Translations under genes and position numbers: made by a program
From: Candidatus Omnitrophota bacterium
GTDB taxonomy: Bacteria; Omnitrophota; Gorgyraeia; Gygaellales; Profunditerraquicolaceae
NCBI GenBank assembly: GCA_041650295.1
Contig: JBAZLM010000004.1
Span: forward strand, 51,860-115,859
Length of the DNA stretch: 64,000 bases
Direction: 5' to 3'
The notes under the pieces: model-generated
Told to the model about the DNA's origin: nothing
Database searches by the model: none
What the model saw: only the letters and a program-made list of their open reading frames with translations
In this document: positions 13,875 to 50,613 of the stretch, piece after piece
Layout: every line of letters begins with the position of its first letter
Position numbering within the stretch: the stretch's first letter is position 1

Positions 13875-16800
13875 ATGAAATTTAAGTCTTCAAAACTATT
13901 TAAAATCATTGCTTTGTTGATCTGTTTTGTGCTGTGCTTTGAGCAATCTGGCTTTGCGCAAATTGCCGCTCAACTGGATATCTCAGGCAAGTTATCTGGC
14001 TTGGTTAATTCCATCGCCCAGGACAAATTTCGCCCCCTACATCTGCGTTATCTTCAGTATGATACTAAACTCAATAACTTTAAGCTTCTTCTGGATAAGG
14101 GTAGCTCTAAAGAACTCTCTAAACCTTTTATCGAGCAATCCACTAAAACATTACTAAACTACTTCTTAGCCGGAGTCACTTTACCTAATGACACCTTTTG
14201 GGTAAACCTAAGACCGGATTCTCCAGATAACGTCATTGACCCAGCTTTAGCTCAAACCGACATCGGTCGCATTATGCTAGAAGCTGACGTCCAGCTTAAA
14301 AAAGATACGGCTAGCTTTACTTCTCCCAACACCCCAGAAGGCAAACAATACTGGGATAAGCTCTATACTAAAGCCGGAGAACTCTTTGGCTCTCAAAACA
14401 TCACTATCCCCACCTTAACCCGTCCCTGGATAGTCCCCAACGAGATCATCATCCGTGAGACTATTGATAACGCCTATATCTATAAAGCTACCCTAAAAGT
14501 CATGTTGGAAGATGATTACTTAAAAGAAGGTAAAGGTATCGGCACCGGTATAGATTACTCCTTCAAAGATGAAAAATTAAAACAACTCAACCAATACTCA
14601 TCTGAACTTATCCGCCAGTTAATCATTCCCAAACTAACCAAAGAGATCAACACCTCAAAACGCTACGCTAACCTGCGTCAGGTATACTACTCGTTAATCT
14701 TAGCCCAATGGTTTAAACAGAGATTTGCTAACAACTCTGGAGCTTATTCCAAACTAATCAACCAGAAAAACCTCACTAACCTAACCTCTAAAACCAGCTG
14801 GAGCAAGGATACTTACTTCCAGCAATACCAAAAGTCCTTTAAAGACGGGGAATACAATATCAAAACCCCGGTATCTACCCCTTACGGCCAGGTGATCAGG
14901 AGCTATTTTTCGGGAGGGATCAGGCCTATACCGCAAATTCCTGCTCCTGGAGAAGTATCGCAAGATGGTTTAGTTACTTCAGTAAAAGGGGGAGAATTAT
15001 TTGCAACGGTTACCGGAAGCGATAAGCTGGCAGGGGTTAGCATCGATGATGGAGTAGTAAAAACTACTGATCAGGCTCAGCCATCAAATGGATTTAAAAT
15101 AGAGGATCAAACTACCCCTCCAAAAGTTGAGAATGGTATCTCCGTTAGAAGAGTTGATCTATCCAAATTACCAGTAGGAACGATTATTAAATATAGAATT
15201 TCAAATGATAATTGGAATTATACCTTAAGAGTCGAAGCTAATGGAAGAGTTAGTATCTGGTTGAGGGAAGATCAAGGAAGAATAACCGCGTCGATTAAAG
15301 CTATTGGGAGCAGAGTTCCTTCACTTACCCCGGGCGATGCATATGATGCAGATTTTTTCGGAGAAATAGAACCTGGCGTATTAGCCTATCAGCCGTATTT
15401 TAATCAAACTGATATAGCTGGCAGCAAGGTGCGAGAATTAGTATCCATCGGTGATTATCCTATTCAAGCTACTCCGGAAGACATTATGGTCTATTTGCCT
15501 GATGGAAAAACTCAATTGCCTCGAGAAAAGCCACGGGCATTGCAAGATAAATTTAAGCGTAAAGTCAAAGAGCTAAATGAATTTATTGTTCATCATGGTA
15601 TTCCCGGAGAAAACCCGTTGGAGGCTAACGGATTTGAATTTTTGGTAAAAAGCGGGATAACTAAGGTGGAGATCTTGGCAGAGCGTTTAGGAATGGATAA
15701 GGATAGCCTTGAGGAGATTCTTAGCGCGGTTGAAGAGCAAAAAGGATGGGACATTATTGAAAAGACGATTGATACTTCGACGTTTAGTTTTGCTTTTGAA
15801 AAATTGGCAAAACTACAGGCCGAAAAGAATCTTTATCCAAAACCGCAAAAAACAATTAAGGAAAAGGCCTATGAATTTAAAGATAAAGTTATCAAATTTG
15901 TAAAAGATGAAACTGGCGCGTTGCAGCTAACAGGCTATCGCCAAGATAAAAAATTTAATCAAAAAATTGCAATGGATAAAAAGCTAGCAGGTTTTTATGC
16001 GATTGCGGAAGACCTACTTGAACAACTCCAAAAATTTCCAGATAAACAAGATCTAGTAATTGAGCTTATTGAAAATAAATTTAATGCATTAGTTAGGGAA
16101 TTTCCAAAACAACGCATAGAATTAAATAATGCTAAGAATGAACTTGTTAATGAGCTTGCTATTAATTTGTCATCTGGGCAGCAAGAAAGCATATATTTAC
16201 ACGGTTATTATGAGATTTTAAAAAATATTCTAAATAAATTAATCCCTTGGACGGATGATTTAAAAAAGAAAAACCCTGATTCAGAGTTTATTTTTGTGGC
16301 CAGAGATGCCGGATATATCTATTCGGTATTTAATGCTTTAGGAAAATTAGGTAAGGAGAAAGCCGAAGGATTTGTATATTATTTAAGCCGCGCTTCTATG
16401 TCTGAAGATTTAATTCGCAACGGTCCTTATGATACTGCAAGACGCATGATTAATCAAGCCCACTCAGATACAAAAACCGATAACATTAATGAGCTAACCG
16501 GAAATATTAGAAAAGAATTTAAAGATTATTTAGAACAGGACGATAGGTCTTTTTTGGATGAAACATCCCGTAAGGAATATTTAGAGTTTAAGAATATGGT
16601 GATTAAAGTTAATAGTGAGCTTAAAGCTTTAGGCTATGATCAATTGCAGAAACTAGTTTTGGTTGAGACAGGATTTAAAGGTACGATGCCGTTTTTGATA
16701 AAATTTATTTTAGATTTAGATAAAACGGATGAACAGTTAGCTAATGAAGCAAAAGAAAACGGTGGACAGGAAAATATTCAAGTCGCTATTTTAGAACCTA

Positions 16801-19800
16801 GGGATATTCCTGCTTTTACCGATGGTGTTTATGGCTTAACTGCAGAACAAGCTGAAACTGAGATGAATAAATTTGAAGATTTTTGGGGAGGTCAAGCAGT
16901 AGAAACTCCTGAGAGTGTGGTGGATCTCTTAGAAAAAGAAGATATCTCTCACCCGATAGAGTTTAACTTAATTGATTCAAGGGTAGAAAGAAATAGCAAT
17001 CCTGTTGAGTTGTTAAAATATTTTGTTAATCAGCTAGTAGTTGGGTTAGAAACAATTGAATATTATAAAAAAACTAGAAAGGTTGATGTTGAAAAGCCAG
17101 TGAATAAGTCCTTAGCACAGTTATCTCCTATTGCTGCGACTAAAATTATTGGCTCTGCGCTTGACAAAGGTAATAATTCTTTAGATGGACTGATTGCAGA
17201 AACCCCGGATTATACGGGAAAATTAGTTCAGTTGCAAAATCCCAAACAGATGAGCGCTGGAAATTTTGACGGTACTAGCCATCTGCAATTTACTGATGAT
17301 CCTCAGGGAAAAGCGGGGCAGGTTTGGTTATTTAAAGGTTATCCTCGGCAGAAATGGCATCGCGCTTTAGTTGATGAATTTGTTTATCATATAGCGGAAA
17401 AGCTTGGTTTAAAAAGTGCAATACCGGTTTTTGCCGGGCGGATTAAAAATGGATATATGACCGAGTTTGGAATGTTTATGCGCTGGGAGGAGAACATTGG
17501 TTCTTTGTATGAAGTTTATAGAGGTGATTTTATCCAAAAATTAAGTGAGAATAAAGAAAATCTTAAAACAGTTTTAAGGGAACAGGTCCTAGATTGGCTA
17601 GTTTCACAGCATGATTCCCATTCTCGGAATTTTCTTATTGCTGACGATAAAGACAAAAGTCTTATTCCGATTGATTTTTCACAGGCATTTAAGTTTTTAG
17701 GCAAAGATGAGCTTTCGCTTGATTACAATCCTAATGGTGATGTTAATGGCTACAATAATGTTGCCTACATGCCGATCTATAATCTTATTTATCAAGCAAT
17801 AATTAATAAAGAGATTGATTTTACCCTAACTGAGGCCTGGGAAGTTGTGCAGGAGGTGTTAGAGCGCGTAGAAGAAATGGATACTGATGAATATATTCAG
17901 GCTTTAAAACCTTATGCTGAATTTAGATTTAAAATAATGAAGGATGCTAGTTGGAGTATTAGAAATAGCGATGAATTTTTAAAGTTAGCCCGGGAAAGAA
18001 AAGTTAATATGCGTAAAGATTTCGAAAAGTTTTATAAAAAGCTCGGTTTTTCTAGTGAGACTGATTATCGTTTTAGTTTGCTGGAAATCATGGAGAACCC
18101 CCTCCAAGAGAAGCAAGAATTTTATGTCGATCAATTTAATGCGCTCTGGATTTTTAATGAAAATCAAGATTTGGCTACCAAACCTTATAAGTCTTTAGCG
18201 GCAAAAACTTATCATCAATTTATGGGAAAAGTTTTAGATCGCAATAGTATCGTTTTAGAAACAACTTTTAAAGCTAAAGATGGTCGCATTCGCACTGGAA
18301 CGATGCAAAAAGTTTTTTATCAGGAGCCCTCAGCCAATAAACAATTAAAAGAATTGAATCTTGCGGATTTCAGAGATTGGAGCCAAAACCGGGTATCTAT
18401 AAAATTTTGGGGGCTGGAACCGCCAAAGATTAAGCAAGTTTTGGAAGAGATGGTGATTGATTGGTTATTTTCTAATTACAGCAGTACCGAATCAACCTGG
18501 TTTGAACATGGGTACGCTAAATTCTATTTAATTTGTTTAGATGATAAATCGGATTCTTTTAAAGATTTTCCCAATGACAGGCTTGAGGCGAAAAAGGATT
18601 CTGATGATAAAATAAAACCACCTTTTGCTTACAATTTAGTTAAATATTTAGCTCTCCAAAATCGTCTTTCTATGGATCTGATTGAAGAAATATTGAAAAA
18701 AATTGAAAGTATTCCGGATAACGAAGTTGAAGAACTAATTCGTCCGCTAGCCAAAAGTTATGTTGCTACTAACCCTGATAAGTTTAAGCGTCCGGAAGAT
18801 TTTATAAAAGCATTTTTATCTAGAAAAGACAATTTACGTAAGGATTTTAAAGAATTTTTTCATCAAAATTATTTATTAAATACACCGTTTAATTCTCAAG
18901 TACAAACTCATCAGGCGATGACAGATAAATATATTATTTCCTCAGATCTCTATCAACAGATACATAATGCCCGAGGTGATCAAACCGCGATTATTAAGCT
19001 AATTAACCAACGTTTTAATGAATTAGCCGAAAATTTATCCTGGGAGGAAGTGGAACCTCTAGCGCAAAAAAAGGAAGAGCTGATTATCCGGATCACTGGA
19101 CCGCCAGTTTTAACGAATCAAGATGTACAAATGGATTTACAAACTAATCCTATTGTGCGAGATCGGAAGTTTAAAGCTATGTCTAGACTGTTGGCTTCTT
19201 GGGTTTATTCTTTAAGAGAGCAAAAACCTGATTATTATCTGATTGGTTTAGCCCGTGACGGAGGATATATTCCTTTAATTGATCAATTATTTAATTATGC
19301 TGGAATAATTCCTAAAACTGGCTCTAGTGTTTATCATTTGAGCTGCCCCCGGATGTCAGGAGAGACGCAAAAGAAAATTTATAGCATGATGTATGAAATT
19401 ATTGCAAATGCATTAAAAAATGTTGAGCATAATGATATCCAAGGTTTATATGCGCAAATTCGTTTAGGATTTAATAAAGCAATGGCTGAGAATTCAAGTT
19501 TTTTAGTGATGGTTACAGAAATTCGGAAAGAATTGATAGGGCTTGGATTTGATCAAAAAAATAAAATTGTCATTACGGATACTGGATTTTTTGGAACAAT
19601 TGCTTTCTATATCAAATGTATTTTAGATATGGATAAAAGCCAAGCAAGATTGGAACAAGAATTAGTGGATAATCATGGTCATGAAAATATTGAAGTTGCC
19701 ATTTTACAACCTAGCAGTATAGAAAGTTTTAACAAAAGTTTATTTGGTTTTGATACAACGAGACTTACTCAAGATGATCAGGCTATCGCCAGAAAGTTAG

Positions 19801-22400
19801 AAACAATTTTTGGTTTGCGCAATGTTTTAGGAAATGAATTTGAGAGCAATAAAATTATGCATCCGGTAAAATTTAATGAAGACAATTGGCTGATCGAAGA
19901 TACTGATGCCAGCTCACAATTGGAATTATTTTACCAGCAGATCATGATTGCTCAAATGGTGGATGCATTTATTGCTAGAGAGGGGATTGATTACCCGGGG
20001 CAAGATACTTTGGCTGGTTTTGGTGGCATTGATTTAGACGAAAAGATTGCCGCCCAGGCATTTTTTGATCAACCGGATAATGGTGAGTTAAAAGTTATTA
20101 TTGACCGTTGGTTTAAAGAGTTAATCGCTAAAGATGGATATGTAGCATTTAAGAAATTATATGATGCTTGCGGCCGGTTAAGCTTTATTAAATTATTGCG
20201 TTTAAAATTTCCCCTGCTTTCCACTAACATAATTTTGACCCCGAATCAAGAATTTAAAAGACAATCTCTGTTGGTGCAGTATCTACTTAAACGACAAGGT
20301 ATTCTAACCAGCAGTGTCCCGGTAGCTAGAAAAAAAGACCCAAAGAGCTTACCTTTTGAAGCGGATAAAAAATTCAGTGGTGTGTTATTGGATGTTGATG
20401 GCACAATTACCATGCCCGGCGGAGAGATATCTGATGCGATCATCGAAAAAGTTGAGGAAATGATTACCCGTGGAAACAAGGTAGGAATAGTTACTGGCAG
20501 AAGAGCGCTATCCCCGGATGTTTTTGAGGAGGTAATTAAATTAAAGGTTAACCGACAGGCGTTAAATAATCTTTACATTTTTACCCAGGATGGGGCTCAA
20601 GGTTATAGTGTAGGTGATACTAATCTGCGATGGGAATTTAAAACCGGTTTAAATGAACGAAAAAAGATTTTAAAGAAGTTGGAGCGAAGCGAATTGGTTA
20701 AGTTCCATTGCCAAATTATTCCTGAATCAGCAAAATTAATTTTTAAAATGGATAATCATGACGATACGGACGATTTAATTTTAACTTTAAAGATTGCTTT
20801 AGTTGATTTAGGTTTGGATGCTAAATATTCTGTGGTGGATGCCGGGGCAAATGTGCATTTAATCGCTAGTCAAGCGGACAAAGGAGCGGCAGCCAAAAAA
20901 TTTAGCAATGTAACCGGTTTAGCTCAAGAAAATATATTAAAAATTGGAGACAACTATAATTTGGATGGCAATGATTATCCAATGTTGGCTTTGCCCGGAG
21001 GGGTGGGAGTCAATGATAGCGAGACTACGCTTTGGTTGCTAGATACCTATTTTAAAAATACTGTATTGACCCCAAATATACAATTATTTGCACTTACCGA
21101 TGAGGGGACTGATCCTTTAAGTAATTCTCTGCATTTTGTTAACAATAAAGACATTACGAGTGTAATTTTACCCAAAAACAAATTCGCTGCTTCGGTGGAC
21201 ATGTTAAAAGTGTTTGAAGAATCTTTGCAATACGAATTAGGTAAAGTTCCGCTTTTTTCTATTTTCGGTTCACTTTCTTATGCGCGTGATAAAGAAGGTA
21301 ATATTATTTGGGATACGATCGGTGATTTTGATATTAAGCTTTATACTGAAGAATTATTATGGAATGATGATATCACAGAGATAAAACTTAACTTTTTAAA
21401 TGCTCTTAAAAATCTGGGAATAAAAGTGGATATTCAGGGTAGTGATTCTCCATCTGGATCAGGGCGTGATCTGAGTTCATTAAACTGGGGTATTCTGGAC
21501 AAGCAGGGCAAAAAATATATAGTACATATTATTAATTTTAGAACTAAAGATCTACTTTCTAAAAATGACGCTTTTGTAAATATCCGCAGTAATTTATTTT
21601 ATGGAGATACGCAAGCTTTAAATAATGCGTTGAACATTGTTGGCATTGAAACGGCGGTTGAACAAGCTGCGGTTAGCTGCGAAAAAACGATCTCAATTAT
21701 AAGCAATGCGATAGCTAAAGTAGAAAATATTCGGTCAGAGAATGTGAAACTATTAAAGAGATTATACCAAATTGCTTATGTACAAGGTCGAGAAGCTGAT
21801 TTTTATTGGCTTTTAGAAAAATACCGGAAATTAAGTTTAGAATTTAATCAACAGGATTTAGCTGACGCTTGTAATGAGGGAATCTCTAAACTTATTATGA
21901 ATCCTGAAGAATTACGTGCACTGTTACGTGATAGACTTAAAGCAAATATTAAATTAGTTGATAGTAAATCTATGGCTACTGTTGCGATTCCTGGCGCCGC
22001 ATCGGATAAAGGTGGCGTTGACTTTCGCGGTCTGCCAATTGGCATCCAAAGTCAAAGGATGATTGGCGCATCAGCAGTATTGATTCCGTCTCCAAGGTTA
22101 GATCAAGAGTGGAGCCAGATTGAGCGCATGCTTAACCAAGGAATTATCCCTTCTATTGAAAGGCTGAAAGATTATCTCTCTTTATCTTGTAAGGGCGCAG
22201 ATTGTTCGGCTAGAGTTGATCAAACCTTAAGCGGAATTGCCAATATTCTTAGAATTGAAGAAGAGAGCTTAACCCCCACTGATGCAGCTTTAAAACAACT
22301 GTTAATTTTACTGGAATCTAATCAACCGGCGAATCAATTACAGTTAGCTTTAACCAAAATTCAAGCATCAGAAAAGATGCCGGAGTTAGCTATTCATTAA
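13875..22400 (+). CDS. Giant secreted multidomain protein (2841 aa) with a signal peptide, two paralogous internal domains, a PI3K/PI4K-like atypical kinase motif set, a HAD-superfamily phosphatase domain and a possible nucleotidyltransferase-like segment
   Basis: Single uninterrupted 8526-nt ORF. The N-terminus has a signal peptide (MKFKSSKLFKIIALLICFVLCFEQSGFAQ). The clearest domain is HAD, with motif I LLDVDGTIT, motif II S/T (VGIVTGR), motif III K (DKGAAAKKF) and motif IV GDNYNLDGNDYPML. A kinase-like region has WLFKG, a DSHSRN catalytic loop and IDFS. GS...DFD suggests an NTase fold. Paralogous segments share ARDAGY/ARDGGY and TGF(K/F)GT motifs. Confidence 0.85.
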   Translation: MKFKSSKLFKIIALLICFVLCFEQSGFAQIAAQLDISGKLSGLVNSIAQDKFRPLHLRYLQYDTKLNNFKLLLDKGSSKELSKPFIEQSTKTLLNYFLAGVTLPNDTFWVNLRPDSPDNVIDPALAQTDIGRIMLEADVQLKKDTASFTSPNTPEGKQYWDKLYTKAGELFGSQNITIPTLTRPWIVPNEIIIRETIDNAYIYKATLKVMLEDDYLKEGKGIGTGIDYSFKDEKLKQLNQYSSELIRQLIIPKLTKEINTSKRYANLRQVYYSLILAQWFKQRFANNSGAYSKLINQKNLTNLTSKTSWSKDTYFQQYQKSFKDGEYNIKTPVSTPYGQVIRSYFSGGIRPIPQIPAPGEVSQDGLVTSVKGGELFATVTGSDKLAGVSIDDGVVKTTDQAQPSNGFKIEDQTTPPKVENGISVRRVDLSKLPVGTIIKYRISNDNWNYTLRVEANGRVSIWLREDQGRITASIKAIGSRVPSLTPGDAYDADFFGEIEPGVLAYQPYFNQTDIAGSKVRELVSIGDYPIQATPEDIMVYLPDGKTQLPREKPRALQDKFKRKVKELNEFIVHHGIPGENPLEANGFEFLVKSGITKVEILAERLGMDKDSLEEILSAVEEQKGWDIIEKTIDTSTFSFAFEKLAKLQAEKNLYPKPQKTIKEKAYEFKDKVIKFVKDETGALQLTGYRQDKKFNQKIAMDKKLAGFYAIAEDLLEQLQKFPDKQDLVIELIENKFNALVREFPKQRIELNNAKNELVNELAINLSSGQQESIYLHGYYEILKNILNKLIPWTDDLKKKNPDSEFIFVARDAGYIYSVFNALGKLGKEKAEGFVYYLSRASMSEDLIRNGPYDTARRMINQAHSDTKTDNINELTGNIRKEFKDYLEQDDRSFLDETSRKEYLEFKNMVIKVNSELKALGYDQLQKLVLVETGFKGTMPFLIKFILDLDKTDEQLANEAKENGGQENIQVAILEPRDIPAFTDGVYGLTAEQAETEMNKFEDFWGGQAVETPESVVDLLEKEDISHPIEFNLIDSRVERNSNPVELLKYFVNQLVVGLETIEYYKKTRKVDVEKPVNKSLAQLSPIAATKIIGSALDKGNNSLDGLIAETPDYTGKLVQLQNPKQMSAGNFDGTSHLQFTDDPQGKAGQVWLFKGYPRQKWHRALVDEFVYHIAEKLGLKSAIPVFAGRIKNGYMTEFGMFMRWEENIGSLYEVYRGDFIQKLSENKENLKTVLREQVLDWLVSQHDSHSRNFLIADDKDKSLIPIDFSQAFKFLGKDELSLDYNPNGDVNGYNNVAYMPIYNLIYQAIINKEIDFTLTEAWEVVQEVLERVEEMDTDEYIQALKPYAEFRFKIMKDASWSIRNSDEFLKLARERKVNMRKDFEKFYKKLGFSSETDYRFSLLEIMENPLQEKQEFYVDQFNALWIFNENQDLATKPYKSLAAKTYHQFMGKVLDRNSIVLETTFKAKDGRIRTGTMQKVFYQEPSANKQLKELNLADFRDWSQNRVSIKFWGLEPPKIKQVLEEMVIDWLFSNYSSTESTWFEHGYAKFYLICLDDKSDSFKDFPNDRLEAKKDSDDKIKPPFAYNLVKYLALQNRLSMDLIEEILKKIESIPDNEVEELIRPLAKSYVATNPDKFKRPEDFIKAFLSRKDNLRKDFKEFFHQNYLLNTPFNSQVQTHQAMTDKYIISSDLYQQIHNARGDQTAIIKLINQRFNELAENLSWEEVEPLAQKKEELIIRITGPPVLTNQDVQMDLQTNPIVRDRKFKAMSRLLASWVYSLREQKPDYYLIGLARDGGYIPLIDQLFNYAGIIPKTGSSVYHLSCPRMSGETQKKIYSMMYEIIANALKNVEHNDIQGLYAQIRLGFNKAMAENSSFLVMVTEIRKELIGLGFDQKNKIVITDTGFFGTIAFYIKCILDMDKSQARLEQELVDNHGHENIEVAILQPSSIESFNKSLFGFDTTRLTQDDQAIARKLETIFGLRNVLGNEFESNKIMHPVKFNEDNWLIEDTDASSQLELFYQQIMIAQMVDAFIAREGIDYPGQDTLAGFGGIDLDEKIAAQAFFDQPDNGELKVIIDRWFKELIAKDGYVAFKKLYDACGRLSFIKLLRLKFPLLSTNIILTPNQEFKRQSLLVQYLLKRQGILTSSVPVARKKDPKSLPFEADKKFSGVLLDVDGTITMPGGEISDAIIEKVEEMITRGNKVGIVTGRRALSPDVFEEVIKLKVNRQALNNLYIFTQDGAQGYSVGDTNLRWEFKTGLNERKKILKKLERSELVKFHCQIIPESAKLIFKMDNHDDTDDLILTLKIALVDLGLDAKYSVVDAGANVHLIASQADKGAAAKKFSNVTGLAQENILKIGDNYNLDGNDYPMLALPGGVGVNDSETTLWLLDTYFKNTVLTPNIQLFALTDEGTDPLSNSLHFVNNKDITSVILPKNKFAASVDMLKVFEESLQYELGKVPLFSIFGSLSYARDKEGNIIWDTIGDFDIKLYTEELLWNDDITEIKLNFLNALKNLGIKVDIQGSDSPSGSGRDLSSLNWGILDKQGKKYIVHIINFRTKDLLSKNDAFVNIRSNLFYGDTQALNNALNIVGIETAVEQAAVSCEKTISIISNAIAKVENIRSENVKLLKRLYQIAYVQGREADFYWLLEKYRKLSLEFNQQDLADACNEGISKLIMNPEELRALLRDRLKANIKLVDSKSMATVAIPGAASDKGGVDFRGLPIGIQSQRMIGASAVLIPSPRLDQEWSQIERMLNQGIIPSIERLKDYLSLSCKGADCSARVDQTLSGIANILRIEEESLTPTDAALKQLLILLESNQPANQLQLALTKIQASEKMPELAIH

Positions 22401-22475
22401 ACAGGACGCTTATCCTTCCTAAAAGGTTATCAGCCAAGTCAGAAGGTGGTTAGTTTGAGCGCCCTGTTTTATTTT
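22400..22475 (+). terminator. Putative terminator region after the giant gene
   Basis: Imperfect inverted repeat AACAGGACGC...GCGCCCTGTT followed by TTTTATTTTAT. Confidence 0.3.
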
Positions 22476-22535
22476 ATAAATTTCTTTTGGTGATAATTTA
22501 TGCTAAAATCAATCAAGATTACCCACCGATAATTA

Positions 22536-47394: not shown

Positions 47395-50300
47395 ATGGCT
47401 AGAAGAAGCGATATTCATAAAATTTTAATTATTGGCTCTGGCCCGATTATTATTGGCCAGGCTTGTGAGTTTGATTATTCCGGTACCCAGGCCTGTAAAG
47501 CATTGCGTGAAGAAGGGTATGAAATTATCTTAGTGAATTCTAATCCGGCTACGATTATGACTGATCCGGGGATCGCCGATCATACTTATATTGAGCCGTT
47601 GACGGTTGAGAGCGTGACTAAAATTATCATTAAAGAAAAACCGGATGCGCTTTTGCCAAATTTAGGCGGTCAAACTGGATTAAATCTTGCTTCGGCATTA
47701 CATAAAGCTGGGGTCTTAAAAAAATATAATGTAAAGATTATCGGGGTACAGGCAGATGCGATTGAGCGTGGCGAGGATCGCGAGGCTTTTAAGGATGAGA
47801 TGAAAAAACTGGGGATTCCTGTGCCGCTCTCTAAGATCTGTCTTTCTGAAGACGAGGCATTAAAAGTTGCTAAGGAGTTAGGTTATCCGGTGGTGGTGCG
47901 TCCGGCTTATACGATGGGCGGTACCGGAGGCGGGATTGCTTATAATGTTGAAGATTTATTGATTTTATCGCGCCGAGGTCTTAATGCTAGTTTGATTCAT
48001 CAGATTTTACTTGAAGAAGCGGTAGTGGGATGGGAGGAATTAGAGCTTGAGGTTGTGCGTGATGAAAAGAATCGCATGATTACAGTTTGTTTTATTGAAA
48101 ATATTGATGCGATGGGGGTGCACACCGGAGATAGTTTTTGTGTTGCTCCGATGTTAACTGTTCCGCAAGAACTACAGAAGAGAATGCAAAATTTTTCGTA
48201 TAAAATTGTAGAGGCGATCGGAGTAATCGGGGGTACCAATGTGCAGTTTGCGCATAACCCTAAAGATGATCGCTTAGTGGTTATTGAAATTAATCCGCGC
48301 ACTTCACGTTCTTCGGCGCTGGCTTCCAAAGCAACAGGGTTTCCCATTGCTCGTGTTTCTACGAAATTGGCGGCAGGATTAAATCTCGATGAAATTCCTT
48401 ATTGGCGAAAAAATACTTTAGATCAATATGAGCCTTGGGGAGAATATGTGGTGGTTAAATTTGCGCGCTGGGCATTTGAAAAATTCACTCAAGCCAAAGA
48501 TATTTTAGGGACACAAATGAAGGCAGTTGGCGAAGTAATGAGTATTGGCAAGACTTTTAAAGAAACATTTCAGAAATCTATCCGTTCCCTTGAGTCTGGT
48601 CGTTATGGCTTAGGATTTGCTAAAGATTTTAATAGCTTATCTTTGGATGAATTAAAATCTAAGTTGGCATATCCTTCTAGTGAGCGGGTTTTTCTGATGT
48701 ATGAGGCATTACGAAAAGGAATGAGCGTTGAAGAGTTACATAAGCTTACCTATATCGGTGTTTATTTTATTACACAAATGCAAGAGTTGGTAAAATTTGA
48801 AGAAGAGTTGATTAAAACTGGCTGGAAAAATATCTCTGAGCAAAATTTACGTCAAGCCAAGGAATGGGGATTTAGTGATAAATATCTAGCCAAGATATTT
48901 AAAGTAAAAGAATTAGAAATAAGGACGCAACGTAAAAAAATTGTCGGCAATGCGCGTTTTGAACCGGTTCCGGTAAGCGGGGTAAAAAATGCTGCGTATT
49001 ATTATTCGACGTATTCGCCAGGTAAAGATCAGGTTGCGGTTTCAAATAAAAAGAAAATTCTTATTTTAGGAAGTGGTCCTAATCGGATTGGTCAAGGAAT
49101 CGAATTTGATTATACCTGTGTACATGCAGCATTTGCTTTGCGTGATGCAGGAATTGAAACAATAATGGTTAATTGTAATCCTGAAACGGTATCGACAGAT
49201 TATGATACTTCGGATAAGCTATATTTTGAACCTTTGACCGTAGAGGATGTATTAACAATTTGGGAAAAAGAAAAACCAGATGGAGCGATTGTGCAGTTTG
49301 GCGGTCAAACTCCCTTAAACATAGCTGCTGAACTTGAAGAGAATGGAGTTAAAATTTTAGGTACTAGTCCGCGTAGTATTGCTTTTGCGGAGGACCGCGA
49401 ATTATTCCGACAGAAGATGATTGAATTAGGTATCCGTCAGACTGAAGGGGCAACTGCCTTTTCTTTAGAAGAGGCAATTAAAATTGCCAATCGCATCGGT
49501 TATCCAGTGATGGTGCGGCCTTCATTTGTTTTAGGTGGTCGGGGAATGGAGGTTATTTACGATGAACAGATGCTGACAAAATATGCTAAGGAGGCGATTA
49601 AAGTTAGTCCTGAATATCCGATGCTTATCGATCGATTTTTAGACAACGCGGTTGAGTGTGAGGTGGATGCGCTTTGTGACGGAGAAGATGTATTTGTGGC
49701 TTCGGTGATGGAACATATCGAACATGCCGGAATTCATTCAGGTGACTCTGCCTGTACGATTCCGCCGCGTACGATTAAGCCAGAGCACCTTAAAATTATT
49801 GATGACTGGACTAAAAGCATTGCCAAGGAATTAAAAGTAATCGGGTTGATTAATATTCAATTTGCTATTTGTGAAGATAAAGTTTATATCCTAGAAGCTA
49901 ATCCGCGGGCATCTCGCACGGTGCCCTTGGTGGCTAAGACGATGGGGATTGCGCTTTCTCGGGTGGCTACGCAATTAATGTTAGGAAAAAAAATTAGCGA
50001 TTTTGCGGAACTGATTCCTCGTAAACTTCCTTATGTTATCGTTAAAGAAGCGGTATTTCCTTTTAATATGTTTCCTGAAGTTGATCCGGTGTTAGGCCCG
50101 GAGATGCGCGCCACCGGAGAGGTGATGGGGATCGATCAGGATTTCGGATTAGCTTTTTTTAAAGCCGAAGAGTCAGCCGGAGCAAGGTTACCGTTAGAGG
50201 GGAGTGTTTTAATTACGGTAACGGACAAAGATAAATCGCAAGTTTTACCTTTAGCGGATAAATTATCAAAATTAGGTTTTAAAATTTTGGCTACTGAAAA

Positions 50301-50613
50301 CACGCAACGTTTTTTAAAAGAGAATAAGGTTAATTCGGTTTTGGTTAAGAAGTTGCATGAGGGCAGACCAAATATTTCCGATGCCATTAAGAATAAAGAG
50401 ATAAATTTAATTATTAACACTCCGATTGGTAGAAAGAGTATTTATGATGATAGCTATATCCGCATGTTGGCGATTCAGTATAAAATCCCTTATGTAACTA
50501 CTCTTGAGGCTGCCCGGGCTACGGTTGCCGGAATTGATGCGGTAAAAACTAAAGAAAGTCAACCTAAGTCGCTACAAGAGTATCATCAGCTGTTAAAGCA
50601 GGTAAATGAATAA
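47395..50613 (+). CDS. carB: Carbamoyl-phosphate synthase large subunit
   Basis: 1072 aa with duplicated ATP-grasp halves and an MGS-like C-terminus. Canonical N-terminus KILIIGSGPIIIGQACEFDYSGTQA. Confidence 0.95.
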   Translation: MARRSDIHKILIIGSGPIIIGQACEFDYSGTQACKALREEGYEIILVNSNPATIMTDPGIADHTYIEPLTVESVTKIIIKEKPDALLPNLGGQTGLNLASALHKAGVLKKYNVKIIGVQADAIERGEDREAFKDEMKKLGIPVPLSKICLSEDEALKVAKELGYPVVVRPAYTMGGTGGGIAYNVEDLLILSRRGLNASLIHQILLEEAVVGWEELELEVVRDEKNRMITVCFIENIDAMGVHTGDSFCVAPMLTVPQELQKRMQNFSYKIVEAIGVIGGTNVQFAHNPKDDRLVVIEINPRTSRSSALASKATGFPIARVSTKLAAGLNLDEIPYWRKNTLDQYEPWGEYVVVKFARWAFEKFTQAKDILGTQMKAVGEVMSIGKTFKETFQKSIRSLESGRYGLGFAKDFNSLSLDELKSKLAYPSSERVFLMYEALRKGMSVEELHKLTYIGVYFITQMQELVKFEEELIKTGWKNISEQNLRQAKEWGFSDKYLAKIFKVKELEIRTQRKKIVGNARFEPVPVSGVKNAAYYYSTYSPGKDQVAVSNKKKILILGSGPNRIGQGIEFDYTCVHAAFALRDAGIETIMVNCNPETVSTDYDTSDKLYFEPLTVEDVLTIWEKEKPDGAIVQFGGQTPLNIAAELEENGVKILGTSPRSIAFAEDRELFRQKMIELGIRQTEGATAFSLEEAIKIANRIGYPVMVRPSFVLGGRGMEVIYDEQMLTKYAKEAIKVSPEYPMLIDRFLDNAVECEVDALCDGEDVFVASVMEHIEHAGIHSGDSACTIPPRTIKPEHLKIIDDWTKSIAKELKVIGLINIQFAICEDKVYILEANPRASRTVPLVAKTMGIALSRVATQLMLGKKISDFAELIPRKLPYVIVKEAVFPFNMFPEVDPVLGPEMRATGEVMGIDQDFGLAFFKAEESAGARLPLEGSVLITVTDKDKSQVLPLADKLSKLGFKILATENTQRFLKENKVNSVLVKKLHEGRPNISDAIKNKEINLIINTPIGRKSIYDDSYIRMLAIQYKIPYVTTLEAARATVAGIDAVKTKESQPKSLQEYHQLLKQVNE

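What the first reader, a model, noticed from the sequence alone, without database searches (positions are those of the whole stretch)
20370..21010. Complete HAD-superfamily phosphatase domain embedded near the C-terminal third of the giant protein
Motif I is LLDVDGTIT (DxDGT). A conserved Thr/Ser segment is VGIVTGR. Motif III has a Lys in DKGAAAKKF. Motif IV is GDNYNLDGNDYPML (GDxxNDxxM). This is the Cof/SPP-like arrangement with a cap insertion. A kinase-like and a phosphatase-like domain on one secreted polypeptide is unusual.
Basis: seen in the sequence. Interest (0 to 1): 0.5.

Follow-up and report, generated by a model that had tools for sequence, protein, structure and literature searches.

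The report
HAD phosphatase module in giant protein
The flagged stretch is a real, apparently intact HAD-type phosphatase domain, but it is one of several interchangeable enzyme modules in a long Omnitrophota protein, which is common in that phylum and already auto-annotated as a HAD-IIB hydrolase.

Summary
Window 20322-21044 (aa 2150-2390 of the 2841-aa ORF 13875-22400) is a full-length HAD-IIB domain. It scores 58.6 bits against TIGR01484 (cutoff 41.8) and 31.9 bits against PF08282 (cutoff 20.9). The AlphaFold model has pLDDT 90, and its best PDB matches are HAD-IIB enzymes.

- Motif IV is GDx6ND (GDNYNLDGND), the phosphomannomutase / alpha-phosphoglucomutase type, not GDxxND.
- The domain fails the curated Cof and SPP subfamily cutoffs.

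The identical protein is in NCBI as [quoted passage not shown].

This HAD subfamily is rare: 64 representatives among 1.84 billion proteins. It occurs mostly inside other long proteins; those with a source name are mostly Omnitrophota. There it is usually followed by a SLOG domain, not a kinase.

The host protein belongs to a large multi-copy Omnitrophota family (at least 582 genomic loci). Members share only a signal-peptide-like N-terminus plus a roughly 280-aa domain with no known fold, and a roughly 140-aa C-terminal domain. The middle is shuffled enzyme cargo.

The "kinase" is only weakly supported, and its tandem copy has lost the catalytic motifs. The HAD finding itself is ordinary. The bookended family around it is the more interesting lead.

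The parts
13875..22400 (+). Giant ORF of 2841 aa. It is identical to an NCBI protein named 'HAD-IIB family hydrolase [Candidatus Omnitrophota bacterium]'.
   Evidence: P0001: 100% identity, 100% coverage
13875..13961 (+). Signal-peptide-like N-terminus (MKFKSSKLFK-IIALLICFVLCF-EQSGFA|Q). It is the only strongly hydrophobic segment in the protein and is conserved across the family.
   Evidence: Kyte-Doolittle scan; family alignment. Cleavage and export are inferred, not tested.
13962..14984 (+). Conserved N-terminal 'bookend' domain (aa ~30-370), shared at 51-74% identity (best local alignment) by 119 other long proteins. No Pfam or NCBIfam match and no fold match in the PDB.
15942..17084 (+). 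Module A1 (aa 690-1070; ARDAGY...ETGFKGT). Function unknown. It is duplicated as A2.
   Evidence: 28.6% identity over 364 aa, E=3e-34; no Pfam or PDB match
17097..18074 (+). Module K1 (aa 1075-1400), probably a protein-kinase-like fold. It carries WLFK (K1154), HDSHSRN (1246-1252) and IDFS (1266-1269).
   Evidence: All Pfam matches are below the curated cutoffs.
18087..18944 (+). Module K2 (aa 1405-1690), a diverged copy of K1 that lacks the Lys (WIFN) and the catalytic loop (SNYSSTEST). Probably a pseudokinase.
   Evidence: 23.6% identity, E=6e-5; alignment
18852..20024 (+). Module A2 (aa 1660-2050; ARDGGY...DTGFFGT), a copy of A1.
20322..21044 (+). HAD-IIB domain (aa 2150-2390), the feature the finding describes. 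Motifs I-IV are intact. The C2B-type cap spans about aa 2239-2331.
21060..21929 (+). Module with the invariant pattern G-S...D-x-D (FGSLSY...GDFDIK), possibly a nucleotidyltransferase-like fold. Unassigned.
   Evidence: alignment A4; no Pfam or PDB match
21972..22397 (+). Conserved C-terminal 'bookend' domain (aa ~2700-2841; GGVDFRGLPI...), always at the extreme C-terminus in the 119 relatives.
   Evidence: no family match

Best explanation
Window 20322-21044 encodes a genuine HAD-IIB phosphoryl-transfer domain that appears catalytically complete. Its parts, inferred from established HAD chemistry, are:
- Asp2173, the nucleophile that forms the aspartyl-phosphate intermediate.
- Asp2175, the general acid/base.
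- Thr2207 and Lys2336, which bind the phosphoryl group.
- Asp2359 and Asn2366-Asp2367, which hold the Mg2+.
- A large alpha/beta C2B cap that closes over the site.

It belongs to a small divergent subfamily with a phosphomannomutase-type motif IV (IG[D/N]x5GNDYPML). That subfamily occurs almost only as an internal module of long multi-domain proteins; those with a source name are mostly Omnitrophota.

Here it is one of at least six cargo modules (A1, K1, K2, A2, HAD, NT-like). They sit between an N-terminal signal-like sequence plus a domain of novel fold, and a C-terminal domain. These two ends define a large multi-copy Omnitrophota family.

The most likely activity is Mg2+-dependent hydrolysis of a small phosphorylated metabolite, either a sugar phosphate or a nucleotide-derived molecule, acting independently of the kinase-like module.

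Shown: domain identity, fold, motif integrity, family architecture and module shuffling.
Inferred: catalysis, substrate class and export.
For: Domain identity:
- TIGR01484 scores 58.6 bits (cutoff 41.8) at full length, and PF08282 scores 31.9 bits (cutoff 20.9).
- The AF2 model has pLDDT 90.1 and pTM 0.87, with a Rossmann-like core plus an alpha/beta cap.
- Foldseek top hits are all HAD-IIB enzymes: 4bnd, ISN1, PH1421, YidA and PMMs, with TMq 0.6-0.76 and E down to 2e-13.
- The subfamily profile matches 4bnd at E=5e-16 with an ungapped motif IV.

Motif conservation:
- D2173, D2175, K2336, G2358, G2365, N2366 and D2367 are invariant in the 14-sequence subfamily alignment.

Distribution:
- There are only 64 representatives at E<1e-3 among 1.84e9 proteins. 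The closest are segments of proteins of 745-4408 aa named Omnitrophota. Some of them carry the same N- or C-terminal bookends.
- All 119 best relatives of the whole protein share only aa 1-370 and the last ~140 aa.
- At least 582 genomic loci encode the N-terminal domain. The records kept are almost all Omnitrophota MAGs, with several copies per genome.

Module independence:
- The closest HAD relatives pair with SLOG, HEAT or CofD domains, not with the K or A modules.
- Proteins carrying K-A modules lack the HAD domain.
Against: - No biochemical data exist.
- The query departs from its subfamily at two semi-conserved positions. The hinge Asn is Asp (D2239). A cap Arg, present in 7 of 14 members and in 4bnd, is Glu (E2285). 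Substrate specificity, or even activity, may therefore have drifted.
- Four of the closest relatives have Asn instead of the first motif IV Asp, so loss of activity does happen in this clade.
- The same protein holds a clearly degenerate module (K2).
- No close ortholog was found to test purifying selection.
- Export was not tested with a signal-peptide predictor.
Confidence: 0.7

Rival explanations
1. The domain is a phosphohexomutase (alpha-PGM / PMM-like) rather than a phosphatase. It would interconvert sugar 1-phosphate and 6-phosphate through a bisphosphate intermediate.
For: The best sequence-profile and fold match in the PDB is the L. lactis PMM-like alpha-phosphoglucomutase 4bnd, and PMMs rank high. 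Motif IV has the same GDx5GND(Y/H) spacing as these mutases (the PMM motif is recalled from memory). Distant relatives found with the profile carry PF03332 (PMM) hits.
Against: PF03332 does not match the query at E<1. The cap Arg that aligns with an Arg of 4bnd is Glu in the query. From memory, the equivalent Arg in PMM binds the distal phosphate. Motif II is TGR, as in Cof-type phosphatases. ISN1, a hydrolase, matches the fold equally well.
Confidence: 0.15
2. The domain is a catalytically dead or purely ligand-binding module, serving as a pseudoenzyme or scaffold within the cargo array.
For: Four close relatives replace the first motif IV Asp with Asn. The query carries non-consensus residues at the hinge and cap. 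The neighbouring K2 module is a degenerate copy. There are no orthologs to show constraint.
Against: Every canonical catalytic residue is present in the query: both motif I Asp, the motif II Thr, the motif III Lys, and both motif IV acidic positions. The model is confident through the active-site strands.
Confidence: 0.1
3. The HAD domain and the kinase-like K1 domain form a dedicated opposing kinase/phosphatase pair acting on one substrate. This is the reading the first reader implied.
For: Both occur on one polypeptide. K1 keeps Lys, DxHxxN and Asp motifs typical of PI3/4-kinase, HipA and ABC1-like kinases.
Against: The two modules are not linked in evolution. K-A units occur in P0002, P0003, P0004, P0006 and P0030 without HAD. 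The nearest HAD relatives sit next to SLOG domains and give no BLAST match to K1 or A1. The two modules are about 770 residues apart, with K2 and A2 between them. The kinase assignment is below all curated thresholds. From general HAD knowledge, large C2B caps go with small-molecule substrates rather than protein substrates.
Confidence: 0.1
4. The motifs are a chance resemblance in a long low-GC ORF.
For: None beyond the short length of the individual motifs.
Against: Full-length profile matches at E=1e-15 to 1e-18, a confident HAD fold and conserved homologs.
Confidence: 0.01

Closest known systems
HAD-IIB hydrolases of the PMM / atypical alpha-phosphoglucomutase branch (L. lactis APGM, PDB 4BND; eukaryotic PMM1/2)
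   Same: Same fold and cap type. Best profile match (E=5e-16) and best Foldseek match. Identical spacing in motif IV (GDx5GNDYP) and a DxD motif I.
   Different: Only 14-19% identity in the structural alignments. The PF03332 model does not hit the query. Motif II is TGR rather than the GGSD of PMM (from memory). The cap Arg aligned with an Arg of 4BND is Glu. The domain is embedded in a 2841-aa protein rather than standing alone.
Cof-type HAD-IIB sugar phosphatases (E. coli YidA 1RKQ, YbiV, BT4131) and SPP / phosphoglycolate phosphatase-like PH1421
   Same: HAD-IIB architecture, motifs I-III, and the NGA-type hinge region. Significant sequence and fold matches.
   Different: Fails the curated Cof (42 vs 137 bits) and SPP (41 vs 107 bits) cutoffs. 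Has a 4-residue insertion in motif IV relative to YidA.
ISN1 IMP-specific 5'-nucleotidase (P. falciparum 6RM*, yeast 8JB3)
   Same: Highest TM-scores to the model (TMq 0.72-0.76) and a profile match at E=3e-9. A nucleotide-type substrate would fit the HAD-SLOG pairing seen in the closest relatives.
   Different: ISN1 is a 370-440 aa allosteric oligomeric enzyme with extra N-terminal elements. Identity is 12-14%. The query itself has no SLOG neighbour.
Multi-enzyme long and giant proteins of Omnitrophota (West-Roberts et al. 2023 bioRxiv 10.1101/2023.11.21.568195; 2026 preprint 10.64898/2026.06.07.730766)
   Same: Same phylum. Same habit of stringing HAD, methyltransferase, HATPase, GNAT, kinase and HEAT domains on one polypeptide with N-terminal signal or TM features.
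   Different: Those studies treat proteins of 10 kaa and above, or 30 kaa and above. The family here is 1.5-5 kaa and has no internal TM helices. It is defined by conserved N- and C-terminal domains, which I did not find described in the passages of those papers that I searched or read.
MARTX toxins and polymorphic toxin systems (analogy only, from general knowledge)
   Same: Conserved terminal regions flank a variable, recombining array of enzymatic effector modules.
   Different: No RTX repeats, cysteine protease domain or type I secretion signal were detected. No sequence or fold relationship was shown. Delivery into another cell is pure inference.

Membership tests
HAD superfamily | Motif I DxDx(T/V) at the end of strand 1 | tested here: met
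   LLDVDGT, D2173/D2175/T2177. Both Asp are invariant in subfamily alignment A1.
HAD superfamily | Motif II Ser/Thr and motif III Lys | tested here: met
   T2207 in VGIVTGR. K2336 in DKG is invariant.
HAD superfamily | Motif IV acidic residues (DD / GDxxxD type) | tested here: met
   G2358-D2359 ... N2366-D2367. N-D is invariant. The first Asp is present in the query but is Asn in 4 of 14 relatives.
HAD superfamily | Rossmann-like core fold | tested here: met
   AF2 model with pLDDT 90. 130 Foldseek PDB matches at E<=0.001; all 50 listed are HAD-IIB-type enzymes (phosphatases, phosphomannomutases, IMP nucleotidases).
HAD-IIB (TIGR01484) | Score above the curated cutoff, with a C2 cap inserted between motifs II and III | tested here: met
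   58.6 bits vs 41.8, covering profile positions 2-216 of 221. An alpha/beta insert of about 90 residues lies between motifs II and III in the model.
Cof subfamily (TIGR00099) / SPP subfamily (TIGR01482) / S6PP (PF05116) | Score above the curated subfamily cutoff | tested here: not met
   42.1 vs 137; 41.1 vs 107.15; 16.5 vs 20.3.
Eukaryotic-type phosphomannomutase (PF03332) | Match to the PMM profile | tested here: not met
   No PF03332 hit at E<=1 for the domain or the whole protein. Only the motif IV spacing and fold similarity are shared.
Protein-kinase-like fold kinases (HipA_C, PI3_PI4_kinase, ABC1), for module K1 | Score above the curated cutoff | tested here: not met
   HipA_C 22.4 vs 30.5; PI3_PI4_kinase 14.2 vs 27.1. 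No PDB sequence match.
Protein-kinase-like fold kinases, for module K1 | ATP-binding Lys, catalytic DxHxxN loop and metal-binding Asp | tested here: met
   WLFK1154, H-D1247-S-H-S-R-N1252 and I-D1267-F-S are conserved in 5 of 6 family members and lost in K2. This is motif reading only; the fold was not modelled.
Sec-exported protein | Cleavable N-terminal signal peptide | not testable with these tools
   Only a hydropathy scan and visual n/h/c-region reading were possible. No SignalP or DeepTMHMM was available.
MARTX-like effector-delivery toxin | Terminal repeat regions, autoprocessing protease, dedicated secretion system | not tested
   No Pfam or NCBIfam hit of these kinds in the protein. 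Neighbouring genes are housekeeping.

The most novel reading that the evidence does not exclude
The HAD domain is one payload of a previously undescribed Omnitrophota-wide family of modular proteins. In this family a Sec-type signal plus a novel-fold N-terminal domain and a conserved C-terminal domain flank a freely shuffled array of cofactor-dependent enzymes: HAD, kinase-like, methyltransferase, GNAT, HATPase, metallophosphoesterase and GGDEF, among others.

Most of these enzymes need ATP, SAM, acetyl-CoA or GTP, which are not available outside a cell. The family would therefore be a MARTX-like system that delivers multi-effector cargo into host or prey cells of these ultra-small, probably parasitic bacteria.
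Probability: 0.2. Interest if true: 0.8.

Novelty: new member of a known kind. Interest (0 to 1): 0.35.

Why it matters
The HAD domain matters little on its own. It is a correctly spotted, already auto-annotated HAD-IIB domain in a phylum known for multi-enzyme long proteins.

What could matter is the frame around it. Hundreds of Omnitrophota genes, several per genome, share the same unannotated N- and C-terminal domains and differ in a shuffled enzymatic middle.

If these proteins are exported, they would be a ready-made catalogue of candidate effectors for an uncultured, probably host-dependent phylum. The divergent HAD subfamily, often paired with SLOG domains, would point to manipulation of nucleotide or sugar-phosphate pools.

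Tried and rejected
Searches that found nothing:
- Pfam and NCBIfam scans of every other segment of the giant protein gave nothing above threshold.
- PDB sequence searches with K1 alone and with profiles of the K, A and NT-like modules gave no significant hits.
- Member-wise Pfam scans of the A and NT-like alignments gave no consistent family.
- A SLOG profile built from the relatives found no SLOG domain in the query.
- The AFDB library was not available.
- The word-indexed protein search with the HAD domain alone returned only three stand-alone proteins of about 300 aa. With the subfamily profile it returned only 10 stand-alone proteins of about 250-350 aa, two of which were among those three. 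It evidently misses interior segments of long proteins.
- The metagenome scan for close HAD orthologs found none.
- The context of the stand-alone homolog P0122 was uninformative.
- A literature search for a description of the bookended family or of Omnitrophota effectors found nothing relevant.

Ideas rejected:
- Chance motif match.
- Membership of the Cof or SPP subfamilies.
- An obligate kinase-phosphatase pair.
Full report
**1. The observation**

They lie at aa 2166-2379 of a single 2841-aa ORF, window 13875-22400 on the + strand.

Profile searches confirm a full-length HAD-IIB domain:
- NCBIfam TIGR01484 matches aa 2170-2375 over profile positions 2-216 of 221, with 58.6 bits against a curated cutoff of 41.8 (E=8.8e-16).
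- The excised segment alone gives 66.1 bits.
- Pfam Hydrolase_3 (PF08282) gives 31.9 bits against a cutoff of 20.9.

One detail is inexact. Aligned to E. coli YidA, motif IV carries a 4-residue insertion (IGDnynldGNDypML against IGDQE----NDIAMI). The motif is therefore GDx6ND, not GDxxND.

**2. What kind of HAD domain it is**

The curated subfamily models are not met: Cof 42.1 vs 137 bits, SPP 41.1 vs 107, S6PP 16.5 vs 20.3. "HAD-IIB" is right, but "Cof/SPP" is only the general arrangement.

An exhaustive HMMER search of 1.84 billion representative proteins found only 64 with E<1e-3. The nearest hits (36-45% identity) are themselves internal segments of proteins of 1337-3593 aa. There is also a stand-alone form of about 300 aa at 32-33% identity.

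Alignment of 14 members (A1) defines the subfamily signature:
- (L/V)(L/F)DxDGT
- G(I/V)x(T/S)GR
- (E/Q)NGA
- (N/D/S)KG
- IG(D/N)x5GNDYPML

Positions D2173, D2175, K2336, G2358, G2365, N2366 and D2367 are invariant.

An AlphaFold model built on this alignment is confident (pLDDT 90.1, pTM 0.87). It shows a Rossmann-like core with an alpha/beta cap of about 90 residues inserted between motifs II and III.

Foldseek against the PDB returns only HAD-IIB enzymes at the top (E to 2e-13, TMq 0.6-0.76):
- the Lactococcus lactis [quoted passage not shown] (4BND)
- the Plasmodium and yeast IMP-specific nucleotidase ISN1
- PH1421
- YidA
- several phosphomannomutases

The subfamily profile searched against PDB sequences ranks 4BND first (E=5e-16). 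Motif IV aligns without a gap there (iGdqgqkdGNDYpmL against FGDMTQPGGNDYPVV). More distant stand-alone relatives carry precomputed PF03332 (PMM) hits.

So the domain belongs to the PMM / alpha-PGM-like corner of HAD-IIB, although PF03332 itself does not hit it.

**3. Integrity and likely chemistry**

All canonical catalytic positions are present in the query. Two semi-conserved positions differ from the subfamily:
- The hinge Asn is Asp (D2239).
- A cap Arg is Glu (E2285). This Arg is present in 7 of 14 members and aligns with an Arg of 4BND.

From memory, the equivalent Arg in PMM helps bind the second phosphate of the bisphosphate intermediate. Its loss argues mildly for a hydrolase rather than a mutase.

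Four of the closest relatives have Asn for the first motif IV Asp, so inactivation does occur in this clade. The query itself keeps Asp.

From established HAD knowledge, large C2B caps accompany small-molecule substrates rather than protein substrates.

I therefore favour a Mg2+-dependent small-molecule phosphatase (confidence 0.7). The mutase and pseudoenzyme readings are minority rivals.

**4. The protein around it**

The identical sequence exists in NCBI as [quoted passage not shown] on a 201-kb contig. The name comes from the only domain that any library recognises.

The flanking genes are ordinary chromosomal housekeeping genes. Upstream are tmk, holB, PSP1, metG, tatD and DUF362. Downstream are an IF-2B-family gene (mtnA-like), an AIR-synthase-related gene (thiL-like), tsaE and a TsaD-family gene (tsaB-like).

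Only the first ~30 residues are strongly hydrophobic. They read as a signal peptide: a Lys-rich n-region, a 12-15 residue h-region, then EQSGFA|Q. No predictor was available, so export is an inference.

The 119 best homologs (1.5-4.9 kaa) align to the query only at aa 1-~370 (51-74% identity) and at the last ~140 residues. In every case these regions sit at the extreme N- and C-termini. The N-terminal hydrophobic segment is itself conserved: LLLCFxLxFEQSGFAQ.

Between these bookends the relatives carry many different Pfam domains:
- HATPase_c
- metallophosphoesterase
- MidA and other methyltransferases
- GNAT
- ABC1 with peptidase M48
- HEAT repeats
- GGDEF
- Nudix
- HD

The 80 records kept are almost all named Omnitrophota, or are auto-named "Planctomycetales" MAGs. 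Up to four loci per genome appear among those top 80 alone. Subsets sit at conserved positions: 23 of 80 loci are downstream of an rsmI-like gene and 21 of 80 downstream of glmS.

**5. The other modules and the kinase claim**

The query contains an internal duplication arranged as A1-K1-K2-A2:
- A1 and A2 share 28.6% identity over 364 aa (E=3e-34).
- K1 and K2 share 23.6% identity (E=6e-5).

K-A units recur in P0002, P0003, P0004, P0006 and P0030.

The K family keeps three motifs:
- WxFK
- DWL(F/V)SxxDxHxxNF
- ID(K/F)

Members weakly match three protein-kinase-like Pfam families over the catalytic loop:
- HipA_C: 4 of 6 members, best E=1e-4.
- PI3_PI4_kinase: 4 of 6 members, best E=1.2e-3.
- ABC1: 3 of 6 members.

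All of these are below curated cutoffs, and nothing matches in the PDB by sequence.

K1 has all three motifs. K2 has lost the Lys and the catalytic loop, so it is probably a pseudokinase. "Kinase-like" is thus plausible but not established.

The segment after the HAD domain has an invariant G-S...D-x-D pattern suggestive of a nucleotidyltransferase, but no match anywhere. The A modules are unassigned.

**6. Are the kinase and phosphatase a pair?**

The evidence says they are independent cargo:
- Of the six nearest homologs embedded in long proteins, five (P0124, P0125, P0126, P0127, P0129) have the HAD domain followed within about 40-150 residues by a SLOG domain (PF18306 or PF18171). The sixth (P0128) ends shortly after the HAD domain. 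The named ones are Omnitrophota.
- Other relatives pair the HAD domain with HEAT repeats or CofD.
- A BLAST of K1, A1 and the NT-like module against all 62 HAD-subfamily proteins found nothing.
- The query has no SLOG domain.

The HAD-SLOG pairing and the ISN1 fold match hint at nucleotide-derived substrates for the subfamily, but this is only a lead.

**7. Comparison with the literature**

Multi-enzyme long proteins with signal peptides or TM segments are a documented hallmark of Omnitrophota. HAD domains are listed among the most frequent domains in them:
- West-Roberts et al. 2023 list HAD_2 among the top 20 domains.
- A 2026 preprint counts PF13419 in 74 long proteins. It places it in a "Module 1" together with methyltransferase, HATPase, GNAT and HD domains.

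A HAD domain next to a kinase-like domain is therefore not unusual in this phylum.

Those works deal with proteins of 10 kaa and above, or 20-30 kaa and above. I did not find in them, or in Seymour et al. 2023, any description of the 1.5-5 kaa family defined by the conserved N- and C-terminal domains.

**8. Verdict**

The finding is correct and ordinary: a new, divergent member of the known HAD-IIB kind, already named as such by automatic annotation.

The more interesting result is the bookended, cargo-shuffling family that hosts it. The most novel reading I cannot exclude is a MARTX-like multi-effector delivery family (probability about 0.2). It rests on two things. One is the signal-like N-terminus. 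The other is that most cargo enzymes need intracellular cofactors. Nothing here tests delivery.

Noticed in passing
window 13875-14984 and 21972-22397 (and 119 related proteins P0002-P0120): All close relatives of the giant protein share only a signal-like N-terminus plus a ~340-aa region, and a ~140-aa C-terminal domain (GGIDFRxLPI...ADILRLEEE...LVLLES). Neither has any Pfam, NCBIfam or PDB match. The middle is variable enzyme cargo. At least 582 loci occur in GTDB genomes, and the records kept are almost all Omnitrophota.
   Followed up: partly
window 14000-15000 and 22000-22500: The DNA coding for the N-terminal bookend has GC 0.41-0.43 and negative GC skew (-0.29, -0.14), against about 0.36 and +0.2 in the rest of the window. 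The C-terminal bookend region is also GC-richer (0.40) with skew near zero. This may reflect constraint or concerted evolution among paralogs.
   Followed up: no
window 15942-20024: Duplicated modules sit in a mirror arrangement, A1-K1-K2-A2. K2 has lost the Lys and the DxHxxN catalytic loop that K1 and the homologs keep, so it is probably a pseudokinase.
   Followed up: partly
P0124 2125-2552, P0125 287-699, P0126 2659-3088, P0127 797-1208, P0129 288-742: In the closest relatives, the same HAD subfamily is followed by a SLOG domain (PF18306 or PF18171) within about 40-150 residues. This recurrent HAD-SLOG pair hints at nucleotide-derived ligands. The query lacks the SLOG domain.
   Followed up: partly
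window 21060-21929: The module after the HAD domain has an invariant G-S ... D-x-D pattern (FGSLSY...GDFDIK). It is shared with P0005 and P0116 and is possibly a nucleotidyltransferase fold. No database match.
   Followed up: partly
loci L001-L080, upstream 3 kb: Family members sit at recurrent chromosomal positions: 23 of 80 are downstream of an rsmI-like methyltransferase gene and 21 of 80 downstream of glmS. Stable orthologous slots seem more likely than mobile elements.
   Followed up: partly
model m520e041eb5f1 (aa 28-405): The best, non-significant Foldseek match of the N-terminal domain is NheA, a ClyA-type pore-forming toxin component (E=0.11, TM 0.11-0.13). The domain is built of long helices plus two beta-hairpins. 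This is a lead only.
   Followed up: no
P0133 (4003 aa): A 27%-identical member of the HAD subfamily sits in a long protein labelled Candidatus Woesearchaeota archaeon. This could be mis-binning or cross-domain sharing of cargo modules.
   Followed up: no
whole window 1-64000: Nearly all ORFs are on the + strand and GC skew is positive throughout, so the window lies on one replichore with strong gene-strand bias. The ORF at 47395-50613 (1072 aa) was not examined.
   Followed up: no
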